From: Minisyncoccota bacterium
GTDB taxonomy: Bacteria > Patescibacteriota > Minisyncoccia > Minisyncoccales > CSSED10-335
Assembly (NCBI GenBank): GCA_021129615.1
Contig: JAJOKY010000023.1
Location: forward strand, 1-24,779
Direction of reading: 5' to 3'
DNA length: 24,779 nt
The position numbers and the translations under genes are program-made. Below the pieces are notes generated by a model. The model made no database searches. It saw only the letters and a list, made by a program, of their open reading frames with translations, and was not told where the DNA came from. Of this stretch, positions 654 to 14,236 are shown piece after piece. Numbering within the stretch: position 1 is the first letter of the stretch; every line of letters starts with the position of its first letter.

Positions 654-1835
654 TTAACTAAGGTTACTGTGAATCGCAAAAGCCTCAAGAGCGTTACGGA
701 CTTCTACAGTGTATGTTCCACTTAACATTGCTTCAATCAATCTTCCAGTCTTTGCTAAATCTTCAAGAGCCACAGCATCAGTTTGAAGCGGTCCAACTGT
801 AATCCTATTCAAGTCACCAACAACATAAATATCGTCAGGAACGTGAGGATTAACAATAATCTCTACTTCAAACCCCAAATCAGAAATAAATCTTTCTACA
901 ACATAACCAGCAGATTTACTATCAAAATCCATTCTTCGGTAAGCTTGGTCAAAAGTAGAAATGTTTCTCTTTTGTTTACCACCAACAAGAAGGAACAATC
1001 TTCCACCAGCAACCATACCACCATCATCCCAAATTTGCTTAATACTGGCATTCAAAACACTCGGACTAATTGCTTCAGGAGTAGTATTAGTATTACCACC
1101 TGACTGAGAAACAAATTCAATCAAACCACCAAAAGACGAATAATCAGCAGAACCACCTTCAGTGCCAGACCTAATAGAGTTAATCAAAGCACTATCAAGC
1201 TGTCTCATAAACTCTTTTAATCGGTATGCAGATTGATGAGAGAATTCATTTGGAATAGCAGCGTGGTCAACCGCCTGACGTCTTCGAGTAATGGCAATTC
1301 CATAACCCATTGTCATCAAGTAGTTAAATGGACCAGTTCTTTCAGCAGACCAATCTTCTCCATCTGGTTTCCAAGATTCTTGCTTGGTATGAGCAATAAT
1401 CATTATAGAAAATCCAGTAGAAGGAGAAGTTCCGTGTTCTTCACCAGAAGTAGAACCGTGACCTCTTTCAATTGTTAGGGTATCAGCAGAAACATTAGTT
1501 ACTCTCATTACTTCTGTCTTTCCAGCAGCCGCATCTTTGAACAAAGTTCCAATTTTGAACCTAACTCCGTGTCCAGGGCTAACATCAAGAGAAGTTTCAG
1601 AGGCATCCAAATAACCAGCCGCAGTATTAGGAGTAGTAGCAGTATTCGGATTTAGTTGGTCTTCGATCCAGCTATGCTTTAATTGAGTAGCAACTAAACC
1701 TCCTGCTCCTATCCTTTGAAGCAAAGCAGTATTATCAGTTCTAATAATTTCAGCTAACTCTTCAGACAAATCTAATTTCTTAACATTAGTCGGAATATTA
1801 TAAGCGGGTAGTCCCGTTGCAGTAGATAAAGGCAT
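654..1835 (-). CDS. Major capsid protein (HK97-fold, DUF5309-like) with a beta-rich insertion domain
   Basis: 393 aa, follows a scaffold-like gene. Motifs LDLSEELAEII, HSWIEDQL, GGLIEFV and GTYTVEVRN resemble DUF5309-type capsids. Confidence 0.85.
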   Translation of the reverse strand: MPLSTATGLPAYNIPTNVKKLDLSEELAEIIRTDNTALLQRIGAGGLVATQLKHSWIEDQLNPNTATTPNTAAGYLDASETSLDVSPGHGVRFKIGTLFKDAAAGKTEVMRVTNVSADTLTIERGHGSTSGEEHGTSPSTGFSIMIIAHTKQESWKPDGEDWSAERTGPFNYLMTMGYGIAITRRRQAVDHAAIPNEFSHQSAYRLKEFMRQLDSALINSIRSGTEGGSADYSSFGGLIEFVSQSGGNTNTTPEAISPSVLNASIKQIWDDGGMVAGGRLFLLVGGKQKRNISTFDQAYRRMDFDSKSAGYVVERFISDLGFEVEIIVNPHVPDDIYVVGDLNRITVGPLQTDAVALEDLAKTGRLIEAMLSGTYTVEVRNALEAFAIHSNLS

Positions 1836-2629: not shown

Positions 2630-2932
2630 TTATTTCTTTTTTTTACGATATTTTTTTAAAGTTTTCCAAAATCCTTCAATCCTTAAATTTTTTCGCATTG
2701 CCCTTCCTTCAGGAGTTGCCATACCTCTTTTTTCCATTCGTTCACCATATTCTCCACCAGCTAAATGCCAACGAATCCTTTTTTTAATTTCTCTTGGCGT
2801 CTGAAGTATTCCTTTAAAAGTTTCTATTACTAAACCCTTCGGACTTTTTAAATGCTCAGCTCGTTTTTTTAATTGGGCTGCTTCTCTCTGGTATTTTTGA
2901 ATACGAAATTTTCTTCTATTTTTTATTTTCAT
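2630..2932 (-). CDS. Highly basic 100 aa protein (start revised to ATG 2932)
   Basis: MKIKNRRKFRIQKY...KKYRKKKK. The track's longer start (2995) lies upstream of a promoter at 2970-2942, so ATG 2932 is preferred. Confidence 0.7.
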   Translation of the reverse strand: MKIKNRRKFRIQKYQREAAQLKKRAEHLKSPKGLVIETFKGILQTPREIKKRIRWHLAGGEYGERMEKRGMATPEGRAMRKNLRIEGFWKTLKKYRKKKK

Positions 2933-2941
2933 ACTATTTTC

Positions 2942-2970
2942 TCTATAACAAAATTTAGTAAATTTGTCAA
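2942..2970 (-). promoter_or_regulatory. Sigma70-type leftward promoter (late class)
   Basis: TTGACA-17 nt-TATAGA with extended -10 TG; ATG 9 nt after the -10; nearly identical to the promoter at 14274-14246. Confidence 0.75.
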
Positions 2971-2979
2971 GAATAGAAA

Positions 2980-3099
2980 TTAAGACACTCCCCATTTTAA
3001 TAATAAATAACCTCCAATTATAACAAAAAGAAATGGAGCTAATATTATTAAAAACCCAACTATAAATTCCAAAATATATCTTAAAATACCTTTAATCAT
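2980..3099 (-). CDS. 39 aa hydrophobic membrane peptide
   Basis: Not in the ORF track. MIKGILRYILEFIVGFLIILAPFLFVIIGGYLLLKWGVS*; its ATG overlaps the TGA of 3096..6977 (ATGA coupling). Confidence 0.65.
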   Translation of the reverse strand: MIKGILRYILEFIVGFLIILAPFLFVIIGGYLLLKWGVS

Positions 3100-6000
3100 T
3101 TTTTTCTTTTTTCTAATTCCTTTTTTATTCTTCTTCGCTGTTCCTTTCTTAATGCTCTTTGTTCCTTTTGCTTTCTTCTATAATACCATCTTCTTTGTTG
3201 AATAGGGTCATAAGAATATTGTTTAAGTCCTAAAATAGCATCTAAAATAGCATCAAAGGTTGTTGCATCTTCTTTTGTCAACCTCCTTGTATATCCCATA
3301 ATTCTTAAATTACCTAAAAGTGTTTTCTTTAATGCTTCTCTAAAAACCTTTTCTTCAGGAAGATTGGGGTCAATAATATCTCTACCCATAAAAAGACTAT
3401 AATTCATAAGAGGTTCAAATGCTAATTTAATCCCTGGATGTAAAGCAGAAAACCATTCTCGTATAACACCAGGGTCTTTCAAATTCAAACGAGCCAAATC
3501 TTGAAAAGCAAAATCAAAATTCATATAAACAGGTTTATCTTTCCGTTCCCAGGGCATTCTTGTAAACACTTCTCTTTCTCTCATCCAGTCTGGCAAATAC
3601 CTTTCATCAGGTATTTCTGATAAACTTTCAAACGCTGCTTGGGTTTTTCTGACTGCAGCAAACTTTCCAGGTTGTTTAAAAAGTTGTTCAATTTGTAAGG
3701 GCAAATTTTTCCTAAGCCAGGTGTAGAATGGGACCACCCTTCTCATTACCTTTCTTTCAAAGGCAGTATTACCACTTAAATAAATTGTTCCATTCCTTCT
3801 TGCAACCAATGTTTGATTTTTTGAACTTACACACCATATTTTATCATTATACTTTATTTTTTCTCTTTTGAATTCATCAACATAAACATTTTTAGAAGTA
3901 TAAATACTAACTCTATTATACACTTTCCCTTTTCTTGTTTCTTTTCTACAATTAGACCTCTTACCAATTAAAAAAAGTAGAACTTGAAACACTCCAGCAA
4001 AATCATTTCCTTTTTGCGTAAATACTTCGTGATTATTTTTATGATGTTTAGTTCCATCCGTAATCATTAATATTTCATATAACAACCTTAATTGTTTATT
4101 TGTCAACCTCAACAAAAAATCAACTGTTAATTGCTTATCTGGAAACATATCAATAATCTTATGAGCTAAATCCTTACCAATATAAAAAGAATGAATATTA
4201 TTATCTCTCTTAAAAATATATTCTGTAAATGTTCCTTGATATTCTTTTTGAATTTTTTGCCAACATTTTCTTAATCTATCAACTTTATTTTTATTAACAA
4301 CTGATTGATATACCTGAATTGATTTTCCTTGATGAGAATAATTCCCTTCTGTTAAAATCCACCCAATCAATTCCACAAAAGTATCACTAAAAATCTTTTC
4401 TTTTATTGGATTATTATAATTACAAGACTGAACTTTTAACTTAACCCTTTTTATATTATTCGTTTCTACTAACGAATACTTATCTCTTTTAATAATATTA
4501 TGATTTCCCTTCTTACCAATATCACCATAAACAATCCATTTATGTTTATCTGTTATCATTGCATTAAATCTTGTAGAATGCCAATAATTTAATTCACCAT
4601 TAAAGTCTTGTATATGAATATAATTTATATCATTCCATTCAAGATAATCTTTTTTAAGATTAAAAGAAAGAACTTTTAATCCAGCCTGAATATCAAACCA
4701 TCTTTTCCAGCCCTTATTAGTTAAAATCTCTGTTTCTTTATCAAAACAAAGCTCCCCATAATCAAAAAGGAATTTTTTCGTATGCCTTGTCGCCGAATGT
4801 ATATCAATTCCCTTGTCAAGTTGGTCTAAAAATAAAGCAAAACGGGCGTTATTCTCTACTGCTGTTCCTGCTCCTCTTGGTAATTCCATTGTAATGTTCC
4901 TCGCCATATCCCTATATTTTGCTTTTTCAGTTAATCTTGGTTTAACCCCTGTTGTAACAGCTATCTCTCTGGTAATATCTTTTCCCAATTCTGCCCCATA
5001 CCAACCACGATTTAGAACTCCTGTTTCCAATCCTTCTTGATATAATTTTGATGCTTTATATTTCTTGCCAGCTAAAGTTACTGTAAAATCATCAGTAGCT
5101 TTCATCAATTTTGCTGGAACTCTTGTTAAAGTTCTTCCTAATCTTCCAGCCTTAGTAGTGCTATAACCATACATCTGAATCCTCATCGCTGTCGTAAATC
5201 TGCGTGGGTCTTTTAGCCCTCCTAAAAAAGTTAACCATAAATTAGACATAGCATTTCTTGAATGATAAGCTGGAAACCAAGAAGTAACTGAAGTTTTCCA
5301 AAAATTTGTAACACTATCAATATGTCTTATTAGCCCCTTTTGAATCACATCCCTTGTAAGATATGGAGACATTGCATTCATTACATCAGCCACCTCATCA
5401 GGCATTAAATAAACAGGAACATCATCTGAAATTTTAAAAGTTGTTTTAATAGTATTAGGCCTTAATTTCATTACTGTTCTATCTAAAAATGCCTCTCCCT
5501 GTGTTTCAAATAATTTCTTCATCGCTCTTTCATTGCCCATTTGAACTACTTTTGTTTTTTTAGAATTATACAAAGGATAAAACCTTGCCCCTCCTCTCGG
5601 GAGATAAAGTCCCATTCCCTCTGGCAATCTTCCAAGTTTCATTGCCTTATTAAATGATTTTTTATCCATTGGAGTTCCAGTTAAAGAAAGCATTTTTTGG
5701 ACATAGTCATCAACAGCAATTACTTTTTTAGAATAAGCATTTCTTATACCTACAGCAACAGCAAAATCTTCTATTGGCTGCCAACCAGCCTTTATCGCTT
5801 CATCCATTGTTTCAAATATTCTTGATTTTCCTGCTCGGTTTCTGGCAACAATAGGATGAGGAACATCTCTTCCCAACATCCCAGCTAATCTTTTTGGATA
5901 ATAATGAGGAATATACCCTAATCTAAAAGTTTTAAGCAACCCTCTTTGAGCTTCTGGCTCTGTAATTTCCTTAAAAATAAACTTCTGAACATCCTCAGCT

Positions 6001-6977
6001 TTTCCAACCAAATGTTTTGGAAGCAACGTTGATAAAGGAACTTTTTTCTTTGCTGCTTGCTCTATTGACCTTGAAATCAATTCTCTATCAACAAGTCTGG
6101 GAACTGCTTTAGCCATTTCTTTTGTCTTTGTCATTGCTAATTGCCCACCTAAAAGAATTCTCTCATTAGCTTGTTGACGATAAAGGACAGCCAAATTTTT
6201 CTGCAAAGGAGTTAACTTTTTAGCTTTCTTCATTATAAAATCATCTCCAATAAATGCCTCTCCAGCCCACCTAAAAGGTTGTCTTCTTGTAAATTTCCCC
6301 CAAGCTTTTCCAGTCATTTTACCTGTTTGATAAAGAATGTCAGAAACTACTGGAATCTTTTTACCAAAAATTCTAACTGCTGTTTTATCAACATATTCAT
6401 CTGGATTTTTTAACGCAGTTCTTAAAACCATTTCTTCTATTTCATCTACAGCCAACTTTCTCGCCATCTTCTTATCAACAACACCAGCTTTCAAATGCTT
6501 TTTTGTGAACATTGATAAATTCTTTTTCAAAGCTGCTTTTTTCAATAATCTTCCTTTTTTATTCAAAACCGTCGATCCCAATTTTGCTCCTGCACTTTTC
6601 CCAAAAGTCATATAGGTCAATGGGTCTAATCCAACATCCAAAGCAAAACCTGCGATTGACCTAACATATTTATTTTTCACACCAGCACTCTCTAAAACAT
6701 CACTATAAAAAACTCTTTCTTTTCCCCTAAGTCCTCTATAAGATGCTCTTAATGCCTCCCTTATACCTTTTCCTTCTACTATTGCTTTAGAAAAAGAAGC
6801 TGAAGCATAAGTAGGTCTTGTAATAAAATCAAGAGCCTTCATTAAAGTTCCTTCTGGTTCTCGTATAGCCCTACCGTGTTGAGGAGTAAAAACCCCCACT
6901 TCATTTCTCGGATGTGGAGATGTATGCAATGTTTGTATTTCTCTAAGTTTTTCTAATTCTTCTGGAGTAAATGCCAT
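3096..6977 (-). CDS. Large probable internal virion/DNA ejection protein with intein (966 aa after splicing)
   Basis: 1293 aa. Extein motifs LDVGLDPLTY, WKTSVTSWFPAYHSRN and FDYGEL/TAFERKVMRRVVPFYTWLRKN resemble large phage virion/polyvalent proteins; lies within the virion operon. Confidence 0.7.
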   Translation of the reverse strand: MAFTPEELEKLREIQTLHTSPHPRNEVGVFTPQHGRAIREPEGTLMKALDFITRPTYASASFSKAIVEGKGIREALRASYRGLRGKERVFYSDVLESAGVKNKYVRSIAGFALDVGLDPLTYMTFGKSAGAKLGSTVLNKKGRLLKKAALKKNLSMFTKKHLKAGVVDKKMARKLAVDEIEEMVLRTALKNPDEYVDKTAVRIFGKKIPVVSDILYQTGKMTGKAWGKFTRRQPFRWAGEAFIGDDFIMKKAKKLTPLQKNLAVLYRQQANERILLGGQLAMTKTKEMAKAVPRLVDRELISRSIEQAAKKKVPLSTLLPKHLVGKAEDVQKFIFKEITEPEAQRGLLKTFRLGYIPHYYPKRLAGMLGRDVPHPIVARNRAGKSRIFETMDEAIKAGWQPIEDFAVAVGIRNAYSKKVIAVDDYVQKMLSLTGTPMDKKSFNKAMKLGRLPEGMGLYLPRGGARFYPLYNSKKTKVVQMGNERAMKKLFETQGEAFLDRTVMKLRPNTIKTTFKISDDVPVYLMPDEVADVMNAMSPYLTRDVIQKGLIRHIDSVTNFWKTSVTSWFPAYHSRNAMSNLWLTFLGGLKDPRRFTTAMRIQMYGYSTTKAGRLGRTLTRVPAKLMKATDDFTVTLAGKKYKASKLYQEGLETGVLNRGWYGAELGKDITREIAVTTGVKPRLTEKAKYRDMARNITMELPRGAGTAVENNARFALFLDQLDKGIDIHSATRHTKKFLFDYGELCFDKETEILTNKGWKRWFDIQAGLKVLSFNLKKDYLEWNDINYIHIQDFNGELNYWHSTRFNAMITDKHKWIVYGDIGKKGNHNIIKRDKYSLVETNNIKRVKLKVQSCNYNNPIKEKIFSDTFVELIGWILTEGNYSHQGKSIQVYQSVVNKNKVDRLRKCWQKIQKEYQGTFTEYIFKRDNNIHSFYIGKDLAHKIIDMFPDKQLTVDFLLRLTNKQLRLLYEILMITDGTKHHKNNHEVFTQKGNDFAGVFQVLLFLIGKRSNCRKETRKGKVYNRVSIYTSKNVYVDEFKREKIKYNDKIWCVSSKNQTLVARRNGTIYLSGNTAFERKVMRRVVPFYTWLRKNLPLQIEQLFKQPGKFAAVRKTQAAFESLSEIPDERYLPDWMREREVFTRMPWERKDKPVYMNFDFAFQDLARLNLKDPGVIREWFSALHPGIKLAFEPLMNYSLFMGRDIIDPNLPEEKVFREALKKTLLGNLRIMGYTRRLTKEDATTFDAILDAILGLKQYSYDPIQQRRWYYRRKQKEQRALRKEQRRRIKKELEKRKK
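3768..4748 (-). mobile_element. Intein with LAGLIDADG homing endonuclease (327 aa, residues 744-1070)
   Basis: N-terminal block CFDKETEILTNKGW, block B region MITDKHKW, LAGLIDADG-like motifs LIGWILTEGN and YEILMITDGT, C-terminal KIWCVSSKNQTLVARRNGTIYLSGN followed by Thr(+1). Confidence 0.92.
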
Positions 6978-6979
6978 AA

Positions 6980-8512
6980 TTAAAATTTTGGCAACCTTTC
7001 AATTGGTAACCCTTTAATAAACTTTTTTGATTCTTCTGTCATAATATCAGAAGGAATACCTGTTATTATTGGTTTTTTTTCTTTCATCCGCCCATATTTT
7101 GCATCTATTTCTTTCATCCGTCGTCTTTCCCTTTCACTTATTCCTCCTATCCATTCTCCTATCCTTTCACCTATTCCTCCTATCCATTCTCCTATCCCTT
7201 TCTGTCCTTCCAACCGTTCTTCCAACATTCTTAATCTTTGTTCTCTAGGCATTTTTCTTTCTTCTGCCCATCTTTCTACCCCTCTTCTCTGCCATTCTCT
7301 CATTCTCCTTGGTGTTCCCAATAACTCTCTTCCAAAAGCATTCCAAAAATTGAATTGTTCAGTTTCATTTTCTCTGGAAAATCTCTCTCGGATAAATTCC
7401 TTAAAAGGTGTAACTGCTCCTGCCAAAGTATTCAATTGTTCGTCTGGACTTAATTGATATACTTTATCCTCTTGGAAACCTAATTCATTCTTCCATTTAT
7501 CTGACTTTATAGAAGTAAATGTCATATCTTGATTAACATAATAAAATTCTCCTCTATCATTTTCTACAAAAGTACCAGGATTAATTTCGTGGATACTGGC
7601 GTGTCGTATATTTTGATAACTAAAATTATCTACATCGCCTGTAAATCTCTCACCATCATATTCAAAATCTACTCCCGCAAAGTTATATTTATCTCCAAAC
7701 ATAGCATTTGCTCGTATAAAATATGTTGATAATCCTTCTACTAAATCATCTCCAGTTCCTAAAACAGGATTTCCTTCTGCATCAGGAACAATAGTAAATT
7801 TCAAATTTGTCGGTTTCATATGACTAATTTGCTTATCAGCCTTACTAACAATCCGCATATTCTTTACTTTCCCCATATAAGGAGTATAAACTACCGCATA
7901 TTCTCCTAACCTACGAGCACCCCTTGCTCTTACCTTTTCATCCATAGAACCCAATTCTTCAAACCCTCTATTTATCTCAGCATATTTAAACTCTTCCATT
8001 TCAAAATCTCTTATCAAATCCTCAAGGGCACTAGTATCTATATGATGTCTTTTGAAAATTTCAAGTAAATCATAAACATTATTTACATCTTCTCCTAATG
8101 CTGTTCCATAAAGAACATCTCCATATTTTATTTGAGCCATTGTGGCATAATGATAAGGGTCTTGTGGAGTTTCAAACTGAATAAACCTTAAATCTTGCTC
8201 TATCAACTGCTTCAAATCTGTAGTATCTATATCTTTTCTTCTGGCTAATTGAGTTCTTAACTTCTTAATTTGGAAATCAATTAAATCAGCTTGTGCCTTT
8301 CTCCTTTCTCTATCTGTGATATAAGGATTTCTTAAAATTGCAGCAGTATCAGCTATAGCTTTATCCCAACCAGCAGGACTATAAATCTCACCTCCTTGGT
8401 CTAAGGCTTCTTGTCTTAATTCAATATCTCTCATATCAGACATTATCCTATAATAATCTGCTGTTTTTCTGGCTCTTGGGAATAAAATTGGACGAAAATT
8501 AAATGTTGGCAT
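6980..8512 (-). CDS. 510 aa protein of unknown function, probable internal virion protein
   Basis: Long ORF tightly packed (2 nt gaps) between the LysM protein and the 1293 aa protein. Confidence 0.6.
   Translation of the reverse strand: MPTFNFRPILFPRARKTADYYRIMSDMRDIELRQEALDQGGEIYSPAGWDKAIADTAAILRNPYITDRERRKAQADLIDFQIKKLRTQLARRKDIDTTDLKQLIEQDLRFIQFETPQDPYHYATMAQIKYGDVLYGTALGEDVNNVYDLLEIFKRHHIDTSALEDLIRDFEMEEFKYAEINRGFEELGSMDEKVRARGARRLGEYAVVYTPYMGKVKNMRIVSKADKQISHMKPTNLKFTIVPDAEGNPVLGTGDDLVEGLSTYFIRANAMFGDKYNFAGVDFEYDGERFTGDVDNFSYQNIRHASIHEINPGTFVENDRGEFYYVNQDMTFTSIKSDKWKNELGFQEDKVYQLSPDEQLNTLAGAVTPFKEFIRERFSRENETEQFNFWNAFGRELLGTPRRMREWQRRGVERWAEERKMPREQRLRMLEERLEGQKGIGEWIGGIGERIGEWIGGISERERRRMKEIDAKYGRMKEKKPIITGIPSDIMTEESKKFIKGLPIERLPKF
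7131..7196. repeat. 33 bp tandem duplication (2 copies, 1 mismatch)
   Basis: CTTTCAC(T/C)TATTCCTCCTATCCATTCTCCTATC twice; encodes IGEWIGGI(G/S)ER twice. Confidence 0.9.
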
Positions 8513-8514
8513 AT

Positions 8515-10419
8515 TTATTTTAGAGGAAGAACTAACTTCTGTCCGACCTTTAATTTTTTAGCGGTTTCTTCAGTAAAAGCAATTCCTTCAGGAGTTTTTA
8601 ACTCTTTCCATCTTCTTCCTGCTCCTAACTCTCTCTGAGCAATATCCCATAAGGTTTCTCCTCTTTTTACTGTAACTATTTTAGGTTCTATTTTTGGTTC
8701 TTCTACCTTTGGCTCTTCCGCCTTTGGCTTTACTTTAACCTCTGGCTTAACTTCTACTGGCGGAACATCTACCTTGACATCTTTCTTAATATCTGGTTTA
8801 ATTTCTGGTTTAACTTCAGGTAATCTCAACCTTGCCCCAGTAAAAATTCTATCTGGGTGTTTAATTTGAGGATTTAATCTCATCAATTCTTCTACCGTAG
8901 TTCCGTATTGTTGAGCTAATCCGCTCAATGTAGCCCCTCTTGGAATAGTTATTTCTTCTTTTGGAACTACATCCTTTACTGGCGGAACATCTGCTGATGG
9001 TTTTATCTCTGCTTTAACTTCTGGCTCAACAAATTGTTCTTTAACAATTTCTTCTGGTCTTTTTTCAAGCATCTCTTCTGGTTCAATTTCAGTAACTACC
9101 GCAGGTGCTTGAACTTTAAGCCACTCTGTAATTTCAGCAGTTGTAGGGAAGCGACCTTCTCTTTCTTGGAAATTTTGCATCCAAGATTGAAGTTCCCCTG
9201 CTATTTCTGTTGTATGATGAACTCGTTTTTGAACCAATAAAGTATTTAATCTCTGAAAATCAGGAGATAAAGAAACATCAGCCCCGAATAGAGTTTCAAG
9301 ATTTTTATACTTCTGCATAGCTCTTTGATAATTGGCTTCAGTAGCTAAATCTGGTGTAGCTAAATATTCTTGAGCAATTATACTCTTTGAAGCAAGATTC
9401 AAGGCATTAATAACTGTATCTTGAACTGCTGAAGTTACAATTTGTGGGAAAATCTCCAACTCAGGATGAGTCCTTAATATCTGATTTTTAGCAACTAAAT
9501 TCTCTAAATAAGAATCAGGAAGTATTCCTAATTTATTCCACATAAGGGTTGCTTCTTTTTTATTTTCTGAAACATACTCGTTCACAAAATCACCTAAAAT
9601 ATAATTATTCAAAGTAGTTGCCCAAAATTCTCTTTCAGAATCATATCTCACACCACCAACATTAACTGGCAAATCAAGGTCACCCTTATCTTTAAACCCA
9701 GCAAATACTTCCAATTTCCACAAAGAAGGATTAGCCCTTTCTTCACTAACCGCATTCATTACCATCCAATTCATCTTATCTTCTATTGTAACTTCTAACC
9801 TTTCTTTTGTTAATGTCCTTAATTGTAATTCATAAGCAGTCCTTAAAACATCATCTCTTTGAATTTCAGGTTTACCCAATTGAGCATTCACTAAAGCAAT
9901 TGCATCATCCAAAGACTTAGCAGTCCTATCATCTTTCTTAAAACTTATCTGAGAATCTATAATCATCCTATCTTGCCTTGTTTTTTCTTCAGAAACCTTA
10001 AGAATTTCATCTTGAATCTCATCTCTAATTTCTCTATTCCATCCTTGTTCTAAAGTATTTTGTAAATATTCTAAATGGTCTGCTAATGTTTTTTTTCCAG
10101 TAACTAATTCTTGTAAAAAAGCATAATACTGGTCTCTAAACTCTCTTGCTTTAACCAACTTTCTCAAAGAAGAAATTGAAGTTTTTATCTCATCTATAAA
10201 ATCTAAATCAGGATAAGTTTTTTCTTGCTCTTCTTTTAATTGTCTTTTCCTATAATCTAATTGGTCTTTCCAAGATAAATCTTCATCAACTACTCTTCTT
10301 TGAAAAACAGCTTCTCCTGTTGCCTGAATCCTTTTTCGGGAAAGAGTAAAACTATTAAGTCGTGTCTTGACAATTTCAGATAAATCTATTGTAAATTCTT
10401 TAACTCTTTCTACTGACAT
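8515..10419 (-). CDS. Virion protein with two C-terminal LysM domains
   Basis: LysM1 ITIPRGATLSGLAQQYGTTVEELMRLNPQIKHPDRIFTGARLRLP and LysM2 VTVKRGETLWDIAQRELG...LKVGQKLVLP, flanked by Pro/Glu/Lys/Val linkers; helical N-terminal region. Confidence 0.8.
   Translation of the reverse strand: MSVERVKEFTIDLSEIVKTRLNSFTLSRKRIQATGEAVFQRRVVDEDLSWKDQLDYRKRQLKEEQEKTYPDLDFIDEIKTSISSLRKLVKAREFRDQYYAFLQELVTGKKTLADHLEYLQNTLEQGWNREIRDEIQDEILKVSEEKTRQDRMIIDSQISFKKDDRTAKSLDDAIALVNAQLGKPEIQRDDVLRTAYELQLRTLTKERLEVTIEDKMNWMVMNAVSEERANPSLWKLEVFAGFKDKGDLDLPVNVGGVRYDSEREFWATTLNNYILGDFVNEYVSENKKEATLMWNKLGILPDSYLENLVAKNQILRTHPELEIFPQIVTSAVQDTVINALNLASKSIIAQEYLATPDLATEANYQRAMQKYKNLETLFGADVSLSPDFQRLNTLLVQKRVHHTTEIAGELQSWMQNFQEREGRFPTTAEITEWLKVQAPAVVTEIEPEEMLEKRPEEIVKEQFVEPEVKAEIKPSADVPPVKDVVPKEEITIPRGATLSGLAQQYGTTVEELMRLNPQIKHPDRIFTGARLRLPEVKPEIKPDIKKDVKVDVPPVEVKPEVKVKPKAEEPKVEEPKIEPKIVTVKRGETLWDIAQRELGAGRRWKELKTPEGIAFTEETAKKLKVGQKLVLPLK
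8544..8551 (-). promoter_or_regulatory. AAAGGTCG motif inside the 3' end of the LysM gene
   Basis: Exact motif 31 nt upstream of ATG 8512. Confidence 0.55.
8756..8992. repeat. 15 bp direct repeats flanking LysM1
   Basis: ACTGGCGGAACATCT at 8756-8770 and 8978-8992, 222 bp apart (in frame). Confidence 0.85.
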
Positions 10420-10449: not shown

Positions 10450-12168
10450 TTAACGCCCCCTAAATCCTTTTTGGGCTATCGCCCCTTCTGGAGATTCGGG
10501 TGATTGTTGAGGAACTCCAGGAGCCGCCATTGGTAACTCTTCTCCTGCTTCGTGTCCTGCTCCACCCGCAGCTTCATCTAATATAGGTCCTCTTTCTGGA
10601 CCTTCCTCTCCCCGACCAGCTATTGCCTGAGCTATCATTTGCTGAATCTGCATTCTCATTTGAGGACTTCTTGAAATCTCTATCATTAAACTGGTATCTT
10701 CCCACTCCTTTTTCATAATCTTTTGTTCCTCTTTTGGAGAAGGAATACCAAGATTCTTCATTGTTGTATATTGCGACTGAAGTTTCATATTAAATTTGTT
10801 AATCTCTTCCATCACATCTCTAATCAAAACTGAAGGGAAGAAAATATCAGTTTTATAATACCCCTGTATTAAAAATTTAGCAGCAGGAACATAAACTTCT
10901 ACCAATCTTAAAATACTGGCATTCAACTTTTTCAAAGCAACTCTCCAATATTGCTGTTTATGTTTAACTTTATTATTCACCCCCTGCATTAAAACTGATA
11001 AAGCTCTACCAGTAGCCCTTGCTGTCATAGCTCCTCCATAAAAGATTTCAGAAATCATTGATAAATGATGAATATCATTTTTCCGACTGGCAGTATATGT
11101 ATCAAAAGGGGCAGTAGATTGTCCCATTGGGTCGGGCCACAACCTATCTTCTGCTCCTAATTTAATCATTTCCGCCTGACCTGCGTGATATTCTACTGGT
11201 TCTCCTTCACCTGAATAAAAAATGTGAGGCACTGCCACTTGATTAATTTTTCCTCTGGTAGCACAGACAGTTTCATTATATTCTACTTGCGGGTCAAGCA
11301 TATCTTCAATATCAGAAACCCCCCAGGGTCTTGTCGGATGAGACATATTTTTAACAAAAATACCAGGAATAAAATCCCAATTGTGTTTAGCAAAATCTAC
11401 TATCTTATTGTCAATCATTGCTAACATATACTTACTATCCCAATAAATCTGAATCGTGCACATTGGATAACCAGTTGGTTTTTTATACCCAATTGGCTGA
11501 GAGGAAACAAAGCTTACTATTCCCCTTTCCTTCATTTGCTCTTTATAAATTTCCTCTGCCTTTTTTACTGAAACTCGGTAATGAAAAATAAAGCCCTCCA
11601 TTTCTGTAAAATCTTCGTCAGACCAAAGAGGTCGCACATTTTCTACCCTTTTTACATTCTTAAATCTAATTCTTGGGATTTTTTTTCCTTCAACTTTAAC
11701 CCATTCAACATAAGGACCAAAAATAAAACAGTCCCCCAATAAACTTTGGTTCTGGACTGCCTCAGCAAAAACAACTGGATATTCATTATCCTCTTTAATT
11801 GCTCCTAAAAGTTTTTCCACTTCTTCTGACCGAGCTATTTCTATATCATCTGTATTATCTCTTGGCGGAATATCATCTTCAGGCGGCTCGCTAGCAAGAA
11901 AAGATGTATAATTCAAAACTGTTGTCCGACAATAATTATAAACCCTTTCTGGCGTGCCATCATCCTTAAAATAAGACCAATGGTCTCCTTCAAAAAATCT
12001 TCTTAGGTCATTATAGCCAGCAATTTTCTTACCTTTTCCTAAAGCATTACTAACACCACTCACTCTTTCTGCATAATCTTGATTGAGTTCACTATCACGA
12101 CCAATAACATAATTTCTAAGAGTTTCTTCGGTTATATCATCTTCAATAAGTGGATTGATTTCTGCCAT
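10450..12168 (-). CDS. Portal protein
   Basis: 572 aa directly after TerL; portal-like segments (FFEGDHW...VYNYCRTTV, WGVSDIEDMLDPQVEYN, ATGRALSV). Confidence 0.85.
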   Translation of the reverse strand: MAEINPLIEDDITEETLRNYVIGRDSELNQDYAERVSGVSNALGKGKKIAGYNDLRRFFEGDHWSYFKDDGTPERVYNYCRTTVLNYTSFLASEPPEDDIPPRDNTDDIEIARSEEVEKLLGAIKEDNEYPVVFAEAVQNQSLLGDCFIFGPYVEWVKVEGKKIPRIRFKNVKRVENVRPLWSDEDFTEMEGFIFHYRVSVKKAEEIYKEQMKERGIVSFVSSQPIGYKKPTGYPMCTIQIYWDSKYMLAMIDNKIVDFAKHNWDFIPGIFVKNMSHPTRPWGVSDIEDMLDPQVEYNETVCATRGKINQVAVPHIFYSGEGEPVEYHAGQAEMIKLGAEDRLWPDPMGQSTAPFDTYTASRKNDIHHLSMISEIFYGGAMTARATGRALSVLMQGVNNKVKHKQQYWRVALKKLNASILRLVEVYVPAAKFLIQGYYKTDIFFPSVLIRDVMEEINKFNMKLQSQYTTMKNLGIPSPKEEQKIMKKEWEDTSLMIEISRSPQMRMQIQQMIAQAIAGRGEEGPERGPILDEAAGGAGHEAGEELPMAAPGVPQQSPESPEGAIAQKGFRGR

Positions 12169-12192
12169 TTTTTTGTAAAAAGAAAAAATAAA

Positions 12193-13668
12193 TTATTTAT
12201 AAAAATTAGTTAGAGAAAACTTTTTAATTTTACTTGCCTTTAAATACTTTTCAACATACCAAGCTAACATTGCGAAAACCATCACCCAATCTTGTTTAAT
12301 TTTCCTATCTTCTAATTTATAAGAAGCTAACTGCTTTTCTAATTTTGGCAAGTAATAACTCTTTAATTTACCCATAGCAGATTCTTCACCAAAAGTCAAA
12401 CGTTTTCTAAGATTATTCCTTAATCGCAACTGCAGAAAAAACAAAGCATCTGATTTATTCCCCTGTCCAAAAATAATTGGAGAAAATTGTTTTAACATTT
12501 TTTTAAAAATCGTGCCCCCCATCTCTGTTACATCCATTACCATAGGAGCATCATTATAAGTCATCCGTTTAAAACTCGCCATAGCCATTAACTCAATCGG
12601 GTCTCCTCCCTGTTTAGAATAAGCATCTACCACTTCCACATTATTTAAATCCGTGACATCAGCTATAAAAATTACCGTCTCATCCCCTCCATCTGCTACA
12701 CCCCAATCAATTACTTCAACATATTTTCTATCAAGCTGACTATCAGTTGGTCCTTTTTTGTCATTCCATATCCCTTCTATAACATCAGGTGGAAACATTC
12801 TGTCAGACGAAGCTAAGAAAACACCTTTAATAACCTGAAGATACTTCATTGGCGATACTCTTTTTAATCTTTCAATAAATTCATATCTTTTACGTTCTGG
12901 AATAAAAATATTTTCTTGATAAAAACCCTCAACTAAATGCCACTCACCTTCTTTTTTCTCCTCCTGTGCTCGTTTAGCCGCAGTATAAAGATGATACCAA
13001 TACTGTTGAGATTTGCCCAATTCATCAGGAGTAGATACCAAAACAACCCAACCAGAATATTTAGCAGTTCTTGAAAAAATACGAGCACCAAGTTCTTCCT
13101 CAAGATGGTGTGATTGAACCGCCTCATCATAAGTAATAAGAGCAAATTGTTTCCCAGCCAAACCAGATGCCTTATCAGCTGCAGTAGACAAACACCAAAA
13201 AGAAGAATTATTTCTGAAATCTATCCTACCAAGAACTTCATTTTTTCCCTCCCAAAACCATTTAATTTTACAATCGTTAATATAACGCTTTCCTTCTATT
13301 TCCCAAGAAAATTGTGAACGCAAAATCTCTTCTACATAACGAAATGCTTCTGAAGACTGACGAGAAATCGGTGAAATGTTCAATGTTTCATATCTCGCTT
13401 TTTCTATTAACTCTGGTTTTCCATCTAACCCTTTTTTATAAAAATTAAACCAAATGTGAACTATCGCAATAGCAACAGTTTTCCCAACCTGATTAGCTGT
13501 TACCCATAAATTCTGTTTCGACCATTCAACAAAATCAACATTCTTTTTTCTACATTTACATAAAGATAATAATGCCCTTTTCTGAAAAGGATTAAGGGCA
13601 AGCCCTAAAATATTTTCAGCAAAAAAAATAGGGTCGCCTTCACCTAATAATAACAGAAGCTTGTCCAT
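12193..13668 (-). CDS. terL: Terminase large subunit (probable start ATG 13668)
   Basis: Walker A TANQVGKT, Walker B ITYDEA, coupling motif VSTP, nuclease IDWG...DETV and C-terminal DWVM. AAGGAG lies 6 nt before ATG 13668; the track start is 13713. Confidence 0.9.
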   Translation of the reverse strand: MDKLLLLLGEGDPIFFAENILGLALNPFQKRALLSLCKCRKKNVDFVEWSKQNLWVTANQVGKTVAIAIVHIWFNFYKKGLDGKPELIEKARYETLNISPISRQSSEAFRYVEEILRSQFSWEIEGKRYINDCKIKWFWEGKNEVLGRIDFRNNSSFWCLSTAADKASGLAGKQFALITYDEAVQSHHLEEELGARIFSRTAKYSGWVVLVSTPDELGKSQQYWYHLYTAAKRAQEEKKEGEWHLVEGFYQENIFIPERKRYEFIERLKRVSPMKYLQVIKGVFLASSDRMFPPDVIEGIWNDKKGPTDSQLDRKYVEVIDWGVADGGDETVIFIADVTDLNNVEVVDAYSKQGGDPIELMAMASFKRMTYNDAPMVMDVTEMGGTIFKKMLKQFSPIIFGQGNKSDALFFLQLRLRNNLRKRLTFGEESAMGKLKSYYLPKLEKQLASYKLEDRKIKQDWVMVFAMLAWYVEKYLKASKIKKFSLTNFYK

Positions 13669-14236
13669 CCTGTTCTCCTTCTCTAAGTTGTAAGATTCTA
13701 TCAAAACTGGCATTGACTTGTTTTCTTAATTCTTCAAATTTTTCTGGCGACATTTTTAAAAGTTGATTATATGGCAAAAGAGTTCTCACTGTCTCTAATT
13801 TTAATTTCCCTCTAGCTATTTCTGTTCTTTTAACCGCTTCTTCTGTGTTCCGAATAATTTGATAAAGTCGAGAAACCTCTTTAATGTCAACATTTTTATA
13901 CCTGCTCTTATGCTTCTCATAATCCTTTAAAATTCTATTAAGCATTAAAACTGTTCGCTTCCGATTTTGAATAAGCATCTTTTCAACTTTATCATCTGGT
14001 AACATATCTACCTCTTGTTTAATCAAAACACCTTTTTCTTCTTTTTTCCATCTTCTAATCCAGAACATAAAAAAAGCCCAATCTTTTCCACCACCAGCTC
14101 CTGTTTTTTTTCTAACATTAAAATACTTTGGCACAAGAAGTTCATCATAAATTTCTCTTGCCTTTTTAAATGCTCTATTCGCAAGCCAAATGTCTTTAAC
14201 TTCTTTTTCTTTTTTTTCAATATCTTTAACCGCCAT
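13640..14236 (-). CDS. Probable terminase small subunit
   Basis: 198 aa basic helical protein overlapping the TerL start. Assignment by synteny only. Confidence 0.55.
   Translation of the reverse strand: MAVKDIEKKEKEVKDIWLANRAFKKAREIYDELLVPKYFNVRKKTGAGGGKDWAFFMFWIRRWKKEEKGVLIKQEVDMLPDDKVEKMLIQNRKRTVLMLNRILKDYEKHKSRYKNVDIKEVSRLYQIIRNTEEAVKRTEIARGKLKLETVRTLLPYNQLLKMSPEKFEELRKQVNASFDRILQLREGEQDGQASVIIR

What the first reader, a model, noticed from the sequence alone, without database searches (positions are those of the whole stretch)
3768..4748. Endonuclease-bearing intein inside a probable DNA-ejection virion protein
Seen: a complete 327 aa intein (Cys1...Gly-Asn, Thr+1, two LAGLIDADG-like motifs) splits the extein motif FLFDYGEL|TAFERKVMRRVVPFYTW, and its DNA looks more AT-rich than its flanks. 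Established: inteins are concentrated in nucleotide-binding replication/repair enzymes and in terminases, usually at active sites. The host protein here shows no such enzyme motif and lies in the virion operon. Inference: the insertion marks a highly conserved, functionally critical motif of an uncharacterised virion protein family. Splicing could gate virion maturation, or the homing endonuclease could be co-packaged. The penultimate residue is Gly instead of the usual His.
Basis: partly seen in the sequence, partly recalled or inferred. Interest (0 to 1): 0.75.

Follow-up and report, generated by a model that had tools for sequence, protein, structure and literature searches.

The report
Homing intein in phage ejection protein
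A real self-splicing, mobile protein insert (an intein with its own homing endonuclease) interrupts the most conserved loop of a large phage protein that is probably packed in the capsid and ejected with the DNA; the intein is an ordinary kind, but I found no earlier report of it in this host protein family.

Summary
Window 3768-4748 (- strand) encodes a 327-aa intein, residues 744-1070 of a 1293-aa ORF. It runs from Cys1 to Ser-Gly-Asn with Thr+1, has two LAGLIDADG motifs, and has 25% GC against 34-36% in its flanks. A confident AlphaFold model matches solved endonuclease-bearing inteins. Intein-free orthologues, one in a syntenic phage, read straight across GEL|T.

The penultimate Gly is not an oddity. 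It is near-universal (31 of 32) in a mostly phage-borne intein clade that also has Lys/Arg at B:11, Cys at F:4 and Thr/Ser at G:5. Two penultimate-Gly inteins have been tested and splice well: AceL NrdHF, which matches the clade profile, and mycobacteriophage Bethlehem gp51. Earlier notes of this scan on other genomes reached the same view of the Gly-Asn ending.

The host protein belongs to a very large uncharacterised phage family of about 11,000 clusters. Its all-alpha core is remotely homologous to cyanophage A4 gp26, a solved pre-ejectosome protein, and to the C-terminal module of phage polyvalent (LPD38-type) virion proteins. So 'probable ejection protein' is supported.

What is new is the host family and a hotspot. 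At least four intein lineages sit at four points within 20 residues of the motif FDYGELTxFE...PFYTW. The ideas of gated maturation and co-packaging have no support. Interest is moderate.

The parts
3096..6977 (-). Precursor gene: 1293-aa ejection-protein-like host with the intein in frame
   Evidence: One open frame. Full-length homologues occur with and without inteins.
4749..6977 (-). N-extein, residues 1-743, ending FLFDYGEL
   Evidence: It aligns to residues 1 to about 736 of intein-free alleles.
3768..4748 (-). Intein, 327 aa: HINT splicing domain split by a LAGLIDADG endonuclease domain
   Evidence: AF2 pLDDT 92.8. Foldseek to HEN-bearing inteins at E 3.6e-15. Clade profile against PDB: PI-PkoII 7e-12, AceL NrdHF 3.5e-10, I-DmoI 1.7e-5.
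4710..4748 (-). Block A, CFDKETEILTNKG, with Cys1
   Evidence: Cys1 is in 32 of 32 clade members. L9, T10, G13 and W14 are invariant.
4536..4556 (-). Block B, ITDKHKW: Thr B:7, His B:10, Lys B:11, Trp B:12
   Evidence: His is in 32 of 32, Thr/Ser in 32 of 32, Arg/Lys at B:11 in 29 of 32, Trp at B:12 in 11 of 32.
3879..4421 (-). LAGLIDADG homing-endonuclease domain (about intein residues 110-290). Motifs at 4341-4370 (LIGWILTEGN, Glu134) and 4050-4085 (LLYEILMITDGT, Asp231).
   Evidence: I-DmoI-like by Foldseek (E about 3e-5, TM by target 0.6-0.68) and by profile. Both acidic residues are present. Pfam LAGLIDADG_3 scores E 0.0014.
3789..3842 (-). Block F, KIWCVSSKNQTLVARRNG: Cys306 at F:4, no His at F:13
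   Evidence: Cys is in 30 of 32. It aligns with the Asp of the canonical YDL in PI-PkoII and Mja KlbA, but those alignments are weak.
3768..3788 (-). Block G, TIYLSGN: Ser G:5, Gly G:6, Asn G:7
   Evidence: Gly is in 31 of 32, Thr/Ser in 29 of 32, Asn in 28 of 32.
3099..3767 (-). C-extein, residues 1071-1293, starting at Thr+1: TAFERKVMRRVVPFYTWLRKN (3705-3767)
   Evidence: It is contiguous with the N-extein in intein-free alleles.
6980..10419 (-). Upstream partners in the same operon: a 634-aa protein with two LysM domains (8515-10419) and a 510-aa protein (6980-8512)
   Evidence: The same order occurs in the syntenic locus L004.
10450..13713 (-). Portal (10450-12168) and large terminase (12193-13713)
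   Evidence: PHROG and Pfam hits.
654..1835 (-). SU10-type major capsid protein, downstream end of the module
   Evidence: Pfam SU10_MCP, E 9.8e-48.

Best explanation
A mobile LAGLIDADG-type intein has homed into the gene for a large internal virion (ejection) protein of a short-tailed phage.

The 1293-aa precursor is translated whole. The intein then folds and removes itself: attack at the Leu743-Cys744 bond, transfer of the N-extein to Thr1071, cyclisation of Asn1070, and an acyl shift. This leaves a 966-aa protein with the junction ...FLFDYGEL-TAFERKV... That protein is packed into the capsid as part of a pre-ejectosome.

The missing penultimate His is compensated as in the related AceL NrdHF intein, where the basic B:11 residue (here Lys70) takes over that role and Gly at G:6 makes room for it.

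The freed intein's endonuclease cuts intein-less alleles in co-infecting phages, and repair copies the intein in.

What is shown: the fold, intact catalytic residues, contiguous empty alleles, horizontal transfer, and the virion-module context. What is inferred: actual splicing, endonuclease activity, packaging and ejection. It remains open whether Cys1 (class 1) or the block-F Cys306 (class 3-like) makes the first attack.
For: Intein:
- AF2 model with pLDDT 92.8 and pTM 0.91.
- Foldseek top hits are all solved HEN-bearing inteins. The best mini-intein hit is the class-3 AceL NrdHF intein, 6zgq.
- The clade profile hits PI-PkoII at 7e-12 and AceL NrdHF at 3.5e-10.
- Thirty-two full-length relatives sit in classic intein hosts: NrdD, PolA, RpoB, MCM, helicase, TerL, portal and methylase. 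Several carry precomputed Intein_splicing, Hint and LAGLIDADG_3 Pfam hits.
- All catalytic positions are intact.

Mobility:
- P0038's intein is 73% identical in protein and 76% in DNA to the window's, while the exteins are 29% identical.
- Exteins that are 45-49% identical carry inteins only 24-30% identical, at another site.
- The intein is more AT-rich than its flanks in both phages.

Empty site:
- P0002-P0012 and P0016 are contiguous across GEL|T.
- P0011 sits in the same gene order.

Gly-Asn ending:
- In AceL NrdHF the ending is T144-G145-N146, G145H abolishes activity, and Arg69 (B:11) compensates (PMC7891396).
- The Bethlehem gp51 intein with penultimate Gly splices fully, and G316H slows it (PMC5050341).

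Host protein:
- AF2 core model with pLDDT 90.7.
- The top structure hit among 48,161 chains is A4 pre-ejectosome chain 9k3a_A, at Z 5.7 against 3.9 for the next. This chain is gp26, 1114 aa.
- The profile hits the same chain at the intein motif with E 0.0019.
- hhalign gives probability 86% and E 4.7e-6 over 148 columns.
- BFVD and AFDB hits to 'Large polyvalent protein associated domain' proteins reach E 2e-18 and TM 0.73.
- The core profile hits phi24B gp47 just upstream of its LPD38 domain. A preprint found gp47 in virions by proteomics (10.64898/2026.04.10.717836).
Against: - No experiment shows splicing, endonuclease cutting or virion location for this protein.
- The link to A4 gp26 is remote. 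Z 5.7 is below the level the tool calls safe for helical folds, and hhalign used a single-sequence template.
- The window protein itself gives no LPD38 hit.
- The block F/G assignment rests on pattern and on weak local alignments. I could not read coordinates of the model.
- The host bin is a 307-kb partial genome. The host organism, and even whether ejection proteins are needed for its envelope, are unknown.
Confidence: 0.85

Rival explanations
1. Mechanistic variant: the intein splices by the class 3 route. The block-F Cys306 makes the first attack and forms a block-F branched intermediate, and Cys1 is dispensable.
For: - The window intein has Trp at B:12, Cys at F:4 and Ser at G:5, which is the class-3 triplet positions with Ser for Thr.
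- F:4 Cys is in 30 of 32 clade members.
- The nearest characterised mini-intein, AceL NrdHF, has the same H-R-x...C...T-G-N constellation and was proven to be class 3.
- Tori 2010 lists three WCT inteins that keep Ser1 or Cys1. From memory, not read here: Tori and Perler 2011 found that these use the class 3 route.
Against: - Cys1 is invariant in 32 of 32, which suggests it is used. Class 3 is defined by its absence.
- Trp at B:12 is present in only 11 of 32.
- Kelley 2016 treats the penultimate-Gly Bethlehem gp51 intein as class 1.
- F:4 Cys is the second commonest residue at that position in inteins generally.
Confidence: 0.4
2. The insert is a degenerate or domesticated HINT domain that is not excised. 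It either stays in the mature virion protein or only cleaves it into two fragments, as peptidase domains are proposed to do in polyvalent proteins.
For: - One relative (P0014) ends in Arg instead of Asn, and three end in Gln.
- Polyvalent virion proteins are proposed to be processed by their peptidase domains (PMC5512222).
Against: - The window intein keeps Cys1, Thr/His in block B, Asn327 and the Thr+1 nucleophile.
- It interrupts eight near-invariant residues of the family.
- Close orthologues lack it.
- It moves between unrelated exteins together with an intact endonuclease.
Confidence: 0.05
3. The host protein is not an ejection protein. It is another internal head or morphogenesis protein, or an enzyme of unknown activity. 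In that case the intein marks a catalytic site, as in classic hosts.
For: - Near-invariant polar residues (His-x-Arg-Asn, Glu-x-Asn-Ala-Arg, Phe-Asp-Tyr, Glu, Arg) resemble an active site.
- The homology to A4 gp26 is weak.
- The gene lies between the portal and scaffold genes, where head-morphogenesis genes usually lie.
Against: - No enzyme fold was found in PDB.
- The only structural and profile match converges on a pre-ejectosome chain.
- Fold relatives are the end modules of polyvalent proteins thought to be packaged in virions.
Confidence: 0.2

Closest known systems
AceL NrdHF split intein (PDB 6ZGQ; Hoffmann et al. 2020, PMC7891396)
   Same: - Same active-site constellation: His B:10, basic B:11, Cys F:4, no His at F:13, and a Thr/Ser-Gly-Asn ending with Ser/Thr at +1.
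- Probably phage-borne.
- Best solved mini-intein match by profile (E 3.5e-10) and by fold.
- It explains why Gly at G:6 is needed.
   Different: AceL is naturally split, has Ala1 (a proven class 3 mechanism) and Met at B:12, and its endonuclease is a separate GIY-YIG gene. The window intein is contiguous, has Cys1 and Trp at B:12, and carries an in-frame LAGLIDADG domain.
Mycobacteriophage Bethlehem gp51 (RDF, metallophosphoesterase) intein and other actinobacteriophage LAGLIDADG inteins (Kelley et al. 2016, PMC5050341; bioRxiv 10.1101/2025.01.02.630785)
   Same: - A phage-borne, cis-splicing, LAGLIDADG-bearing intein with Cys1 and a penultimate Gly.
- It splices completely, and Gly-to-His slows it.
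- Clade relatives of the window intein occur in 57 isolate phage records, mostly Mycobacterium and Gordonia phages, in methylase, portal, TerL and PolA genes.
   Different: The host proteins differ, and none is an ejection or LPD38-type protein. Identity to the window intein is only 22-28%. I did not test directly whether gp51's intein belongs to the clade.
Cyanophage A4 gp26, outer-layer pre-ejectosome protein (PDB 9K3A chain A; Hou et al. 2025, PMC12002296)
   Same: - A large all-alpha protein of a podophage.
- Top structural match of the extein core (Z 5.7).
- Profile and hhalign matches centred on the motif that hosts the inteins.
- It is encoded beside other large internal proteins, one of which binds or degrades peptidoglycan.
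   Different: The homology is very remote (18% identity over 148 columns). gp26 lacks the FDY and PFYTW residues (it reads FTFDD...PFANW) and carries no intein. Gene order in A4 differs (after the tail genes).
Phage-type polyvalent proteins with LPD38 (Iyer et al. 2017, PMC5512222), for example phi24B gp47
   Same: The extein core has the fold of their C-terminal module. The core profile hits gp47 residues 2214-2402, next to its LPD38 domain at 2490-2695. These proteins are thought to be packaged and ejected.
   Different: The window protein is 'monovalent': it has no enzyme domains and does not reach the LPD38 model.

Membership tests
Intein (HINT splicing domain) | HINT fold bracketing the insert | tested here: met
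   AF2 pLDDT 92.8. Foldseek matches TliVMA, PI-PfuI, PI-SceI and PI-PkoII at E 3.6e-15 to 9e-10.
Intein (HINT splicing domain) | Splice-junction residues: a nucleophile at position 1, Thr/His in block B, a C-terminal Asn, and Ser/Thr/Cys at +1 | tested here: met
   Cys1, Thr66, His69, Asn327 and Thr+1 are present.
Intein (HINT splicing domain) | In-frame insert that is absent from orthologues, which are contiguous across the site | tested here: met
   Eleven or more intein-free alleles, one of them syntenic.
Intein (HINT splicing domain) | Protein splicing actually occurs | not testable with these tools
   This needs an expression or reporter assay.
LAGLIDADG homing endonuclease (two-motif, I-DmoI/PI-SceI type) | Two LAGLIDADG helices, each ending in an acidic residue, in an alpha-beta-beta-alpha-beta-beta-alpha fold | tested here: met
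   Glu134 and Asp231 are present. Helices 122-134 and 217-231 are each followed by strands. I-DmoI matches. The Pfam hit is below the cut-off.
Class 3 inteins | Trp at B:12, Cys at F:4, Thr at G:5 (the WCT triplet) | tested here: inconclusive
   The window intein has Trp, Cys and Ser. The block F assignment rests on pattern and weak alignments.
Class 3 inteins | No Cys/Ser/Thr nucleophile at position 1 | tested here: not met
   Cys1 is present in 32 of 32 clade members. Three known WCT inteins also keep Ser1 or Cys1 (PMC2807308).
Class 3 inteins | The block-F Cys is the obligate first nucleophile | not testable with these tools
   This needs C1A and C306A mutants.
Pfam LPD38 (PF18857) | A match to the model above its gathering score | tested here: not met
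   No hit for P0001, its exteins or P0002. One of 130 core segments hits, at E 0.0018. Fold relatives carry the 'LPD' annotation.
Podophage ejection (pre-ejectosome) proteins | Homology to a protein seen inside a capsid | tested here: inconclusive
   A4 gp26: Z 5.7, hmmsearch E 0.0019, hhalign probability 86%.
Podophage ejection (pre-ejectosome) proteins | Present in the virion and released on infection | not testable with these tools
   This needs proteomics or cryo-EM.

The most novel reading that the evidence does not exclude
The motif FDYGELTxFE...PFYTW of a very widespread ejection-protein module is a recurrent landing site for inteins that carry two adjacent active-site cysteines (Cys1 and Cys F:4). 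If those cysteines form a reversible disulfide, as a catalytic cysteine does in the redox-sensitive M. smegmatis DnaB class-3 intein, splicing would be conditional. Supply of mature ejection protein, and so of infectious particles, would then be tied to the redox state of the host cell. That would make it a post-translational checkpoint in virion assembly.
Probability: 0.07. Interest if true: 0.8.

Novelty: new member of a known kind. Interest (0 to 1): 0.42.

Why it matters
- **New host class for inteins.** It adds an internal virion (ejection) protein to the list of intein hosts. It also points to a 25-residue motif that selection keeps nearly invariant in about 11,000 protein clusters of unknown function. 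At least four independent intein lineages target that motif at four points, which marks it as functionally critical in a family with no known mechanism. That gives experimenters a defined place to mutate.
- **Annotation.** The family links solved A4 gp26, LPD38-type polyvalent proteins and thousands of 'hypothetical' phage genes.

Tried and rejected
- Pfam, NCBIfam and PHROG searches on the whole protein and on its parts gave no Hint hit. The only hits were sub-threshold LAGLIDADG_3 and chance matches (RasGEF, ATP-cone, a 'thymidylate synthase' PHROG that probably reflects an intein in that family).
- A single-sequence PDB search with the intein found nothing.
- Foldseek of the extein core against PDB found nothing with E below 3.
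- tblastn of an intein-free allele against 50,697 phage records found only four 'hypothetical' hits.
- A profile of the C-terminal 46 residues against PDB was not significant and served only to check block F register.
- Tori and Perler 2011 could not be read. What I say of it is from memory.
- I considered a nucleotide-binding enzyme host and rejected it, because no such family or fold match was found.
- I considered an assembly artefact or a chance ORF and rejected it, because the same intein occurs at the same site at 76% DNA identity in an unrelated contig.
- The intein clade has only this one copy in the 307-kb genome bin.
Full report
**1. The observation**

The window is a whole 24.8-kb contig of a 307-kb, 43-contig genome bin. 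Its - strand carries a late operon:
- large terminase (12193-13713)
- portal (10450-12168)
- a 634-aa protein with two LysM domains (8515-10419)
- a 510-aa protein (6980-8512)
- a 1293-aa ORF (3096-6977)
- two small proteins
- an SU10-type major capsid protein (654-1835)

Residues 744-1070 of the 1293-aa ORF map exactly to window 3768-4748. They begin CFDKETEILT and contain ITDKHKW, LIGWILTEGN and LLYEILMITDGT. They end KIWCVSSKNQTLVARRNGTIYLSGN and are followed by TAFERKVMRRVVPFYTW.

GC is 25.2% in the insert against 35.6% and 33.9% in the flanks. That is 10th lowest of 476 windows of equal length.

**2. Is it an intein?**

Library searches almost miss it. Pfam gives only LAGLIDADG_3 at E 0.0014, below its cut-off, and no Hint family. 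A single-sequence PDB search gives nothing.

Homologues settle it. A search restricted to the insert found 31 other proteins. In those, 32 full-length copies of the same element sit inside:
- anaerobic ribonucleotide reductase
- family-A DNA polymerase
- RNA polymerase beta
- MCM and helicases
- terminases and portals
- a methylase and metallophosphoesterases

Many of these carry precomputed Intein_splicing, Hint and LAGLIDADG_3 hits.

A 31-sequence alignment gave an AlphaFold model with pLDDT 92.8 and pTM 0.91. Its best PDB matches are all endonuclease-bearing inteins: TliVMA 3.6e-15, PI-PfuI, PhoVMA, PI-SceI and PI-PkoII. I-DmoI matches the middle domain. The clade profile also hits PI-PkoII (7e-12), the AceL NrdHF intein (3.5e-10) and I-DmoI (1.7e-5) by sequence.

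**3. Empty alleles and mobility**

The host protein has close relatives of 939-957 aa (52-58% identity) that read FLFDYGELTxFEKxxMKRxxPFYTW without a break. One of them, P0011, lies in a 45-kb contig with the same gene order: terminase, portal, LysM protein, a 463-aa protein, the 939-aa protein, small genes, SU10 capsid.

A contig from a Bacillota MAG carries an intein that is 73% identical in protein and 76% in DNA. It sits at the same site (YQEL|T) of a host protein that is only 29% identical. In the other direction, hosts 45-49% identical to the window's carry inteins only 24-30% identical, at a different site. The intein is the more AT-rich part in both contigs.

This uncoupling of intein and extein histories is the signature of homing. 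Both LAGLIDADG acidic residues (Glu134, Asp231) are intact, so an active endonuclease is likely. That is an inference.

**4. The Gly-Asn ending and the splicing class**

Counts across the 32 clade members:

| Position | Residue | Count |
|---|---|---|
| 1 | Cys | 32 of 32 |
| B:10 | His | 32 of 32 |
| B:11 | Arg or Lys | 29 of 32 |
| B:12 | Trp | 11 of 32 (including this one) |
| F:4 | Cys | 30 of 32 |
| F:13 | not His | - |
| G:5 | Thr or Ser | 29 of 32 |
| G:6 | Gly | 31 of 32 |
| G:7 | Asn (Gln 3, Arg 1) | 28 of 32 |

The penultimate Gly is therefore a clade character, not an oddity.

Two experimental precedents explain it:
- In AceL NrdHF (T144-G145-N146), G145H destroys activity because it clashes with Arg69 at B:11, and Arg69 takes over the His role in Asn cyclisation (PMC7891396).
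- The mycobacteriophage Bethlehem gp51 intein, which has a penultimate Gly, splices to completion, and G316H slows it (PMC5050341).

Relatives of the window intein are present in 57 isolate phage genomes, mostly Mycobacterium and Gordonia phages. Earlier notes of this scan on other genomes had reached the same reading of the Gly-Asn ending.

The window intein has Trp, Cys and Ser at the three positions that define class 3 inteins (WCT; PMC2807308). AceL, its nearest characterised relative, is a proven class 3 intein. But class 3 is also defined by the lack of a position-1 nucleophile, and Cys1 is invariant here. I therefore leave the first step open, at about 40% class 3-like. The register of block F rests on pattern and on weak local alignments to PI-PkoII and Mja KlbA. 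I could not read model coordinates.

**5. The host protein**

A profile of the intein-free alleles finds 10,997 clusters (at 50% identity) at E <= 0.001 and 7,708 at E <= 1e-10. These proteins are about 300 to 2,500 aa long. The shared part is a C-terminal core of about 340-430 residues. No Pfam, NCBIfam or PHROG family covers it.

In a 130-sequence alignment of the core, the columns that are at least 90% conserved include K55, P63, H66, R68, N69, E187, A208, F217, D218, Y219, E226, P235, F236, Y237 and R241. Eight of these lie in the 25 residues that hold the intein sites.

The AlphaFold model of the core (pLDDT 90.7, pTM 0.85) is all-alpha. In that model:
- FDYGELT is a loop (216-223) before a short helix (224-233).
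- PFY|TW is the first turn of the next helix.

Foldseek finds nothing in PDB. An exhaustive alignment to 48,161 chains puts one entry clearly first: chain A of the cyanophage A4 pre-ejectosome, at Z 5.7 against 3.9 for the next. That chain is gp26, 1114 aa, the outer all-alpha layer of the capsid-internal ejection complex. The sequence profile independently hits the same chain at the motif (E 0.0019). hhalign gives 86% probability and E 4.7e-6 over 148 columns.

In BFVD and AlphaFold DB, the fold matches the C-terminal module of 'large polyvalent protein associated domain' proteins (E to 2e-18, TM 0.73). Some of those proteins also carry Zeta-toxin, helicase, ART, lysozyme or methylase domains.

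The core profile also hits phi24B gp47 at residues 2214-2402, just before its Pfam LPD38 domain at 2490-2695. A preprint found gp47 in virions by proteomics and proposes it as an ejection protein.

Taken together, 'internal virion protein ejected with the DNA' is the best reading, at about 75-80%. The homology is remote, and the window protein itself does not reach the LPD38 model.

**6. A hotspot**

Within this one family I found inteins at four points of the motif:
- DY|(T/S)EL (P0039, P0040)
- DYA|S (P0041)
- GEL|T (the window, P0038)
- PFY|TW (P0014, P0015, P0017, P0019, P0069, P0160)

A maximum-likelihood tree of 33 inteins shows that they are not one lineage (midpoint root for drawing only):
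- The window+P0038 pair is sister to P0039+P0040 (100/99).
- P0041 groups with a portal intein (99/97).
- P0014 groups with a terminase intein (100/98).
- P0015, P0017, P0069 and P0019 form another group.
- P0160 stands apart.

So at least four lineages, whose nearest kin sit in other late genes, have entered this motif. Between two sister groups the insertion point differs by three residues.

**7. Comparison and novelty**

Inteins in phage virion proteins (portal, minor capsid, tape measure) are already reported (bioRxiv 10.1101/2025.01.02.630785). The intein clade and its Gly-Asn ending are also known.

I found no paper that mentions an intein together with an ejection or internal virion protein: the listed papers holding those terms contained no mention of inteins. 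The polyvalent-protein survey does not mention inteins either.

The finding is therefore a new member of a known kind. It has a new host family, a multi-site hotspot and an unresolved class 1 versus class 3 mechanism.

**8. Verdict**

The intein, the virion and ejection context and the critical motif are supported. The 'unusual' Gly and the rarity of inteins in structural proteins are not.
- Confidence that this is a functional homing intein in an ejection-type virion protein is 0.85.
- Interest is 0.42.

Noticed in passing
P0014 (metagenome protein), intein end at residue 1059: This site-b intein ends Thr-Gly-Arg instead of Gly-Asn, so it cannot cyclise Asn. It may be a dead intein, a cleavage-only element or a sequence error. 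Three other clade members (P0019, P0042, one of P0050) end in Gln.
   Followed up: no
P0039/P0040 versus window 4749-4772: Sister intein lineages (52-55% identical to the window's) sit three residues upstream (DY|TEL or DY|SDL instead of DYGEL|T). The host Gly is replaced by the Thr/Ser nucleophile. This looks like a shift of the insertion point between close relatives.
   Followed up: partly
P0042 (1478 aa, terminase-like): It carries one clade intein plus at least one further intein (a second HMM domain at E 3e-18) and two N-terminal Cys-initiated fragments, making it a multi-intein terminase.
   Followed up: no
window 8515-10419 (-): The 634-aa protein just after the portal has two LysM peptidoglycan-binding domains (residues 494-534 and 568-609). 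PHROG 'endolysin' hits overlap those repeats, and I saw no clear catalytic domain. The LysM protein keeps this position in L004.
   Followed up: partly
window 2851-3300: This is a second very AT-rich stretch (24-27% GC). It covers the Lys/Arg-rich C-terminal tail of the host ORF and the gap before the next gene.
   Followed up: no
L005 15484-16686: An IS605 OrfB/TnpB-type (Cas12f-like) gene lies next to the lysis genes of the Bacillota-MAG phage contig that carries the closest intein relative.
   Followed up: no
P0018: A partial family member is deposited under a Candidatus Aenigmatarchaeota (DPANN archaeon) MAG. It could be a binning artefact or a virus of an archaeon.
   Followed up: no
N-terminal ~130 residues of P0001 and distant relatives (P0019-P0037): A second conserved module (RPxYASA...W+GLxGxEKxxYSDVL...G(F/L)xLD(V/I)xLDPxTY) is shared by family members whose middle parts are unrelated. 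So the family has conserved end modules around a variable centre, like polyvalent proteins.
   Followed up: no
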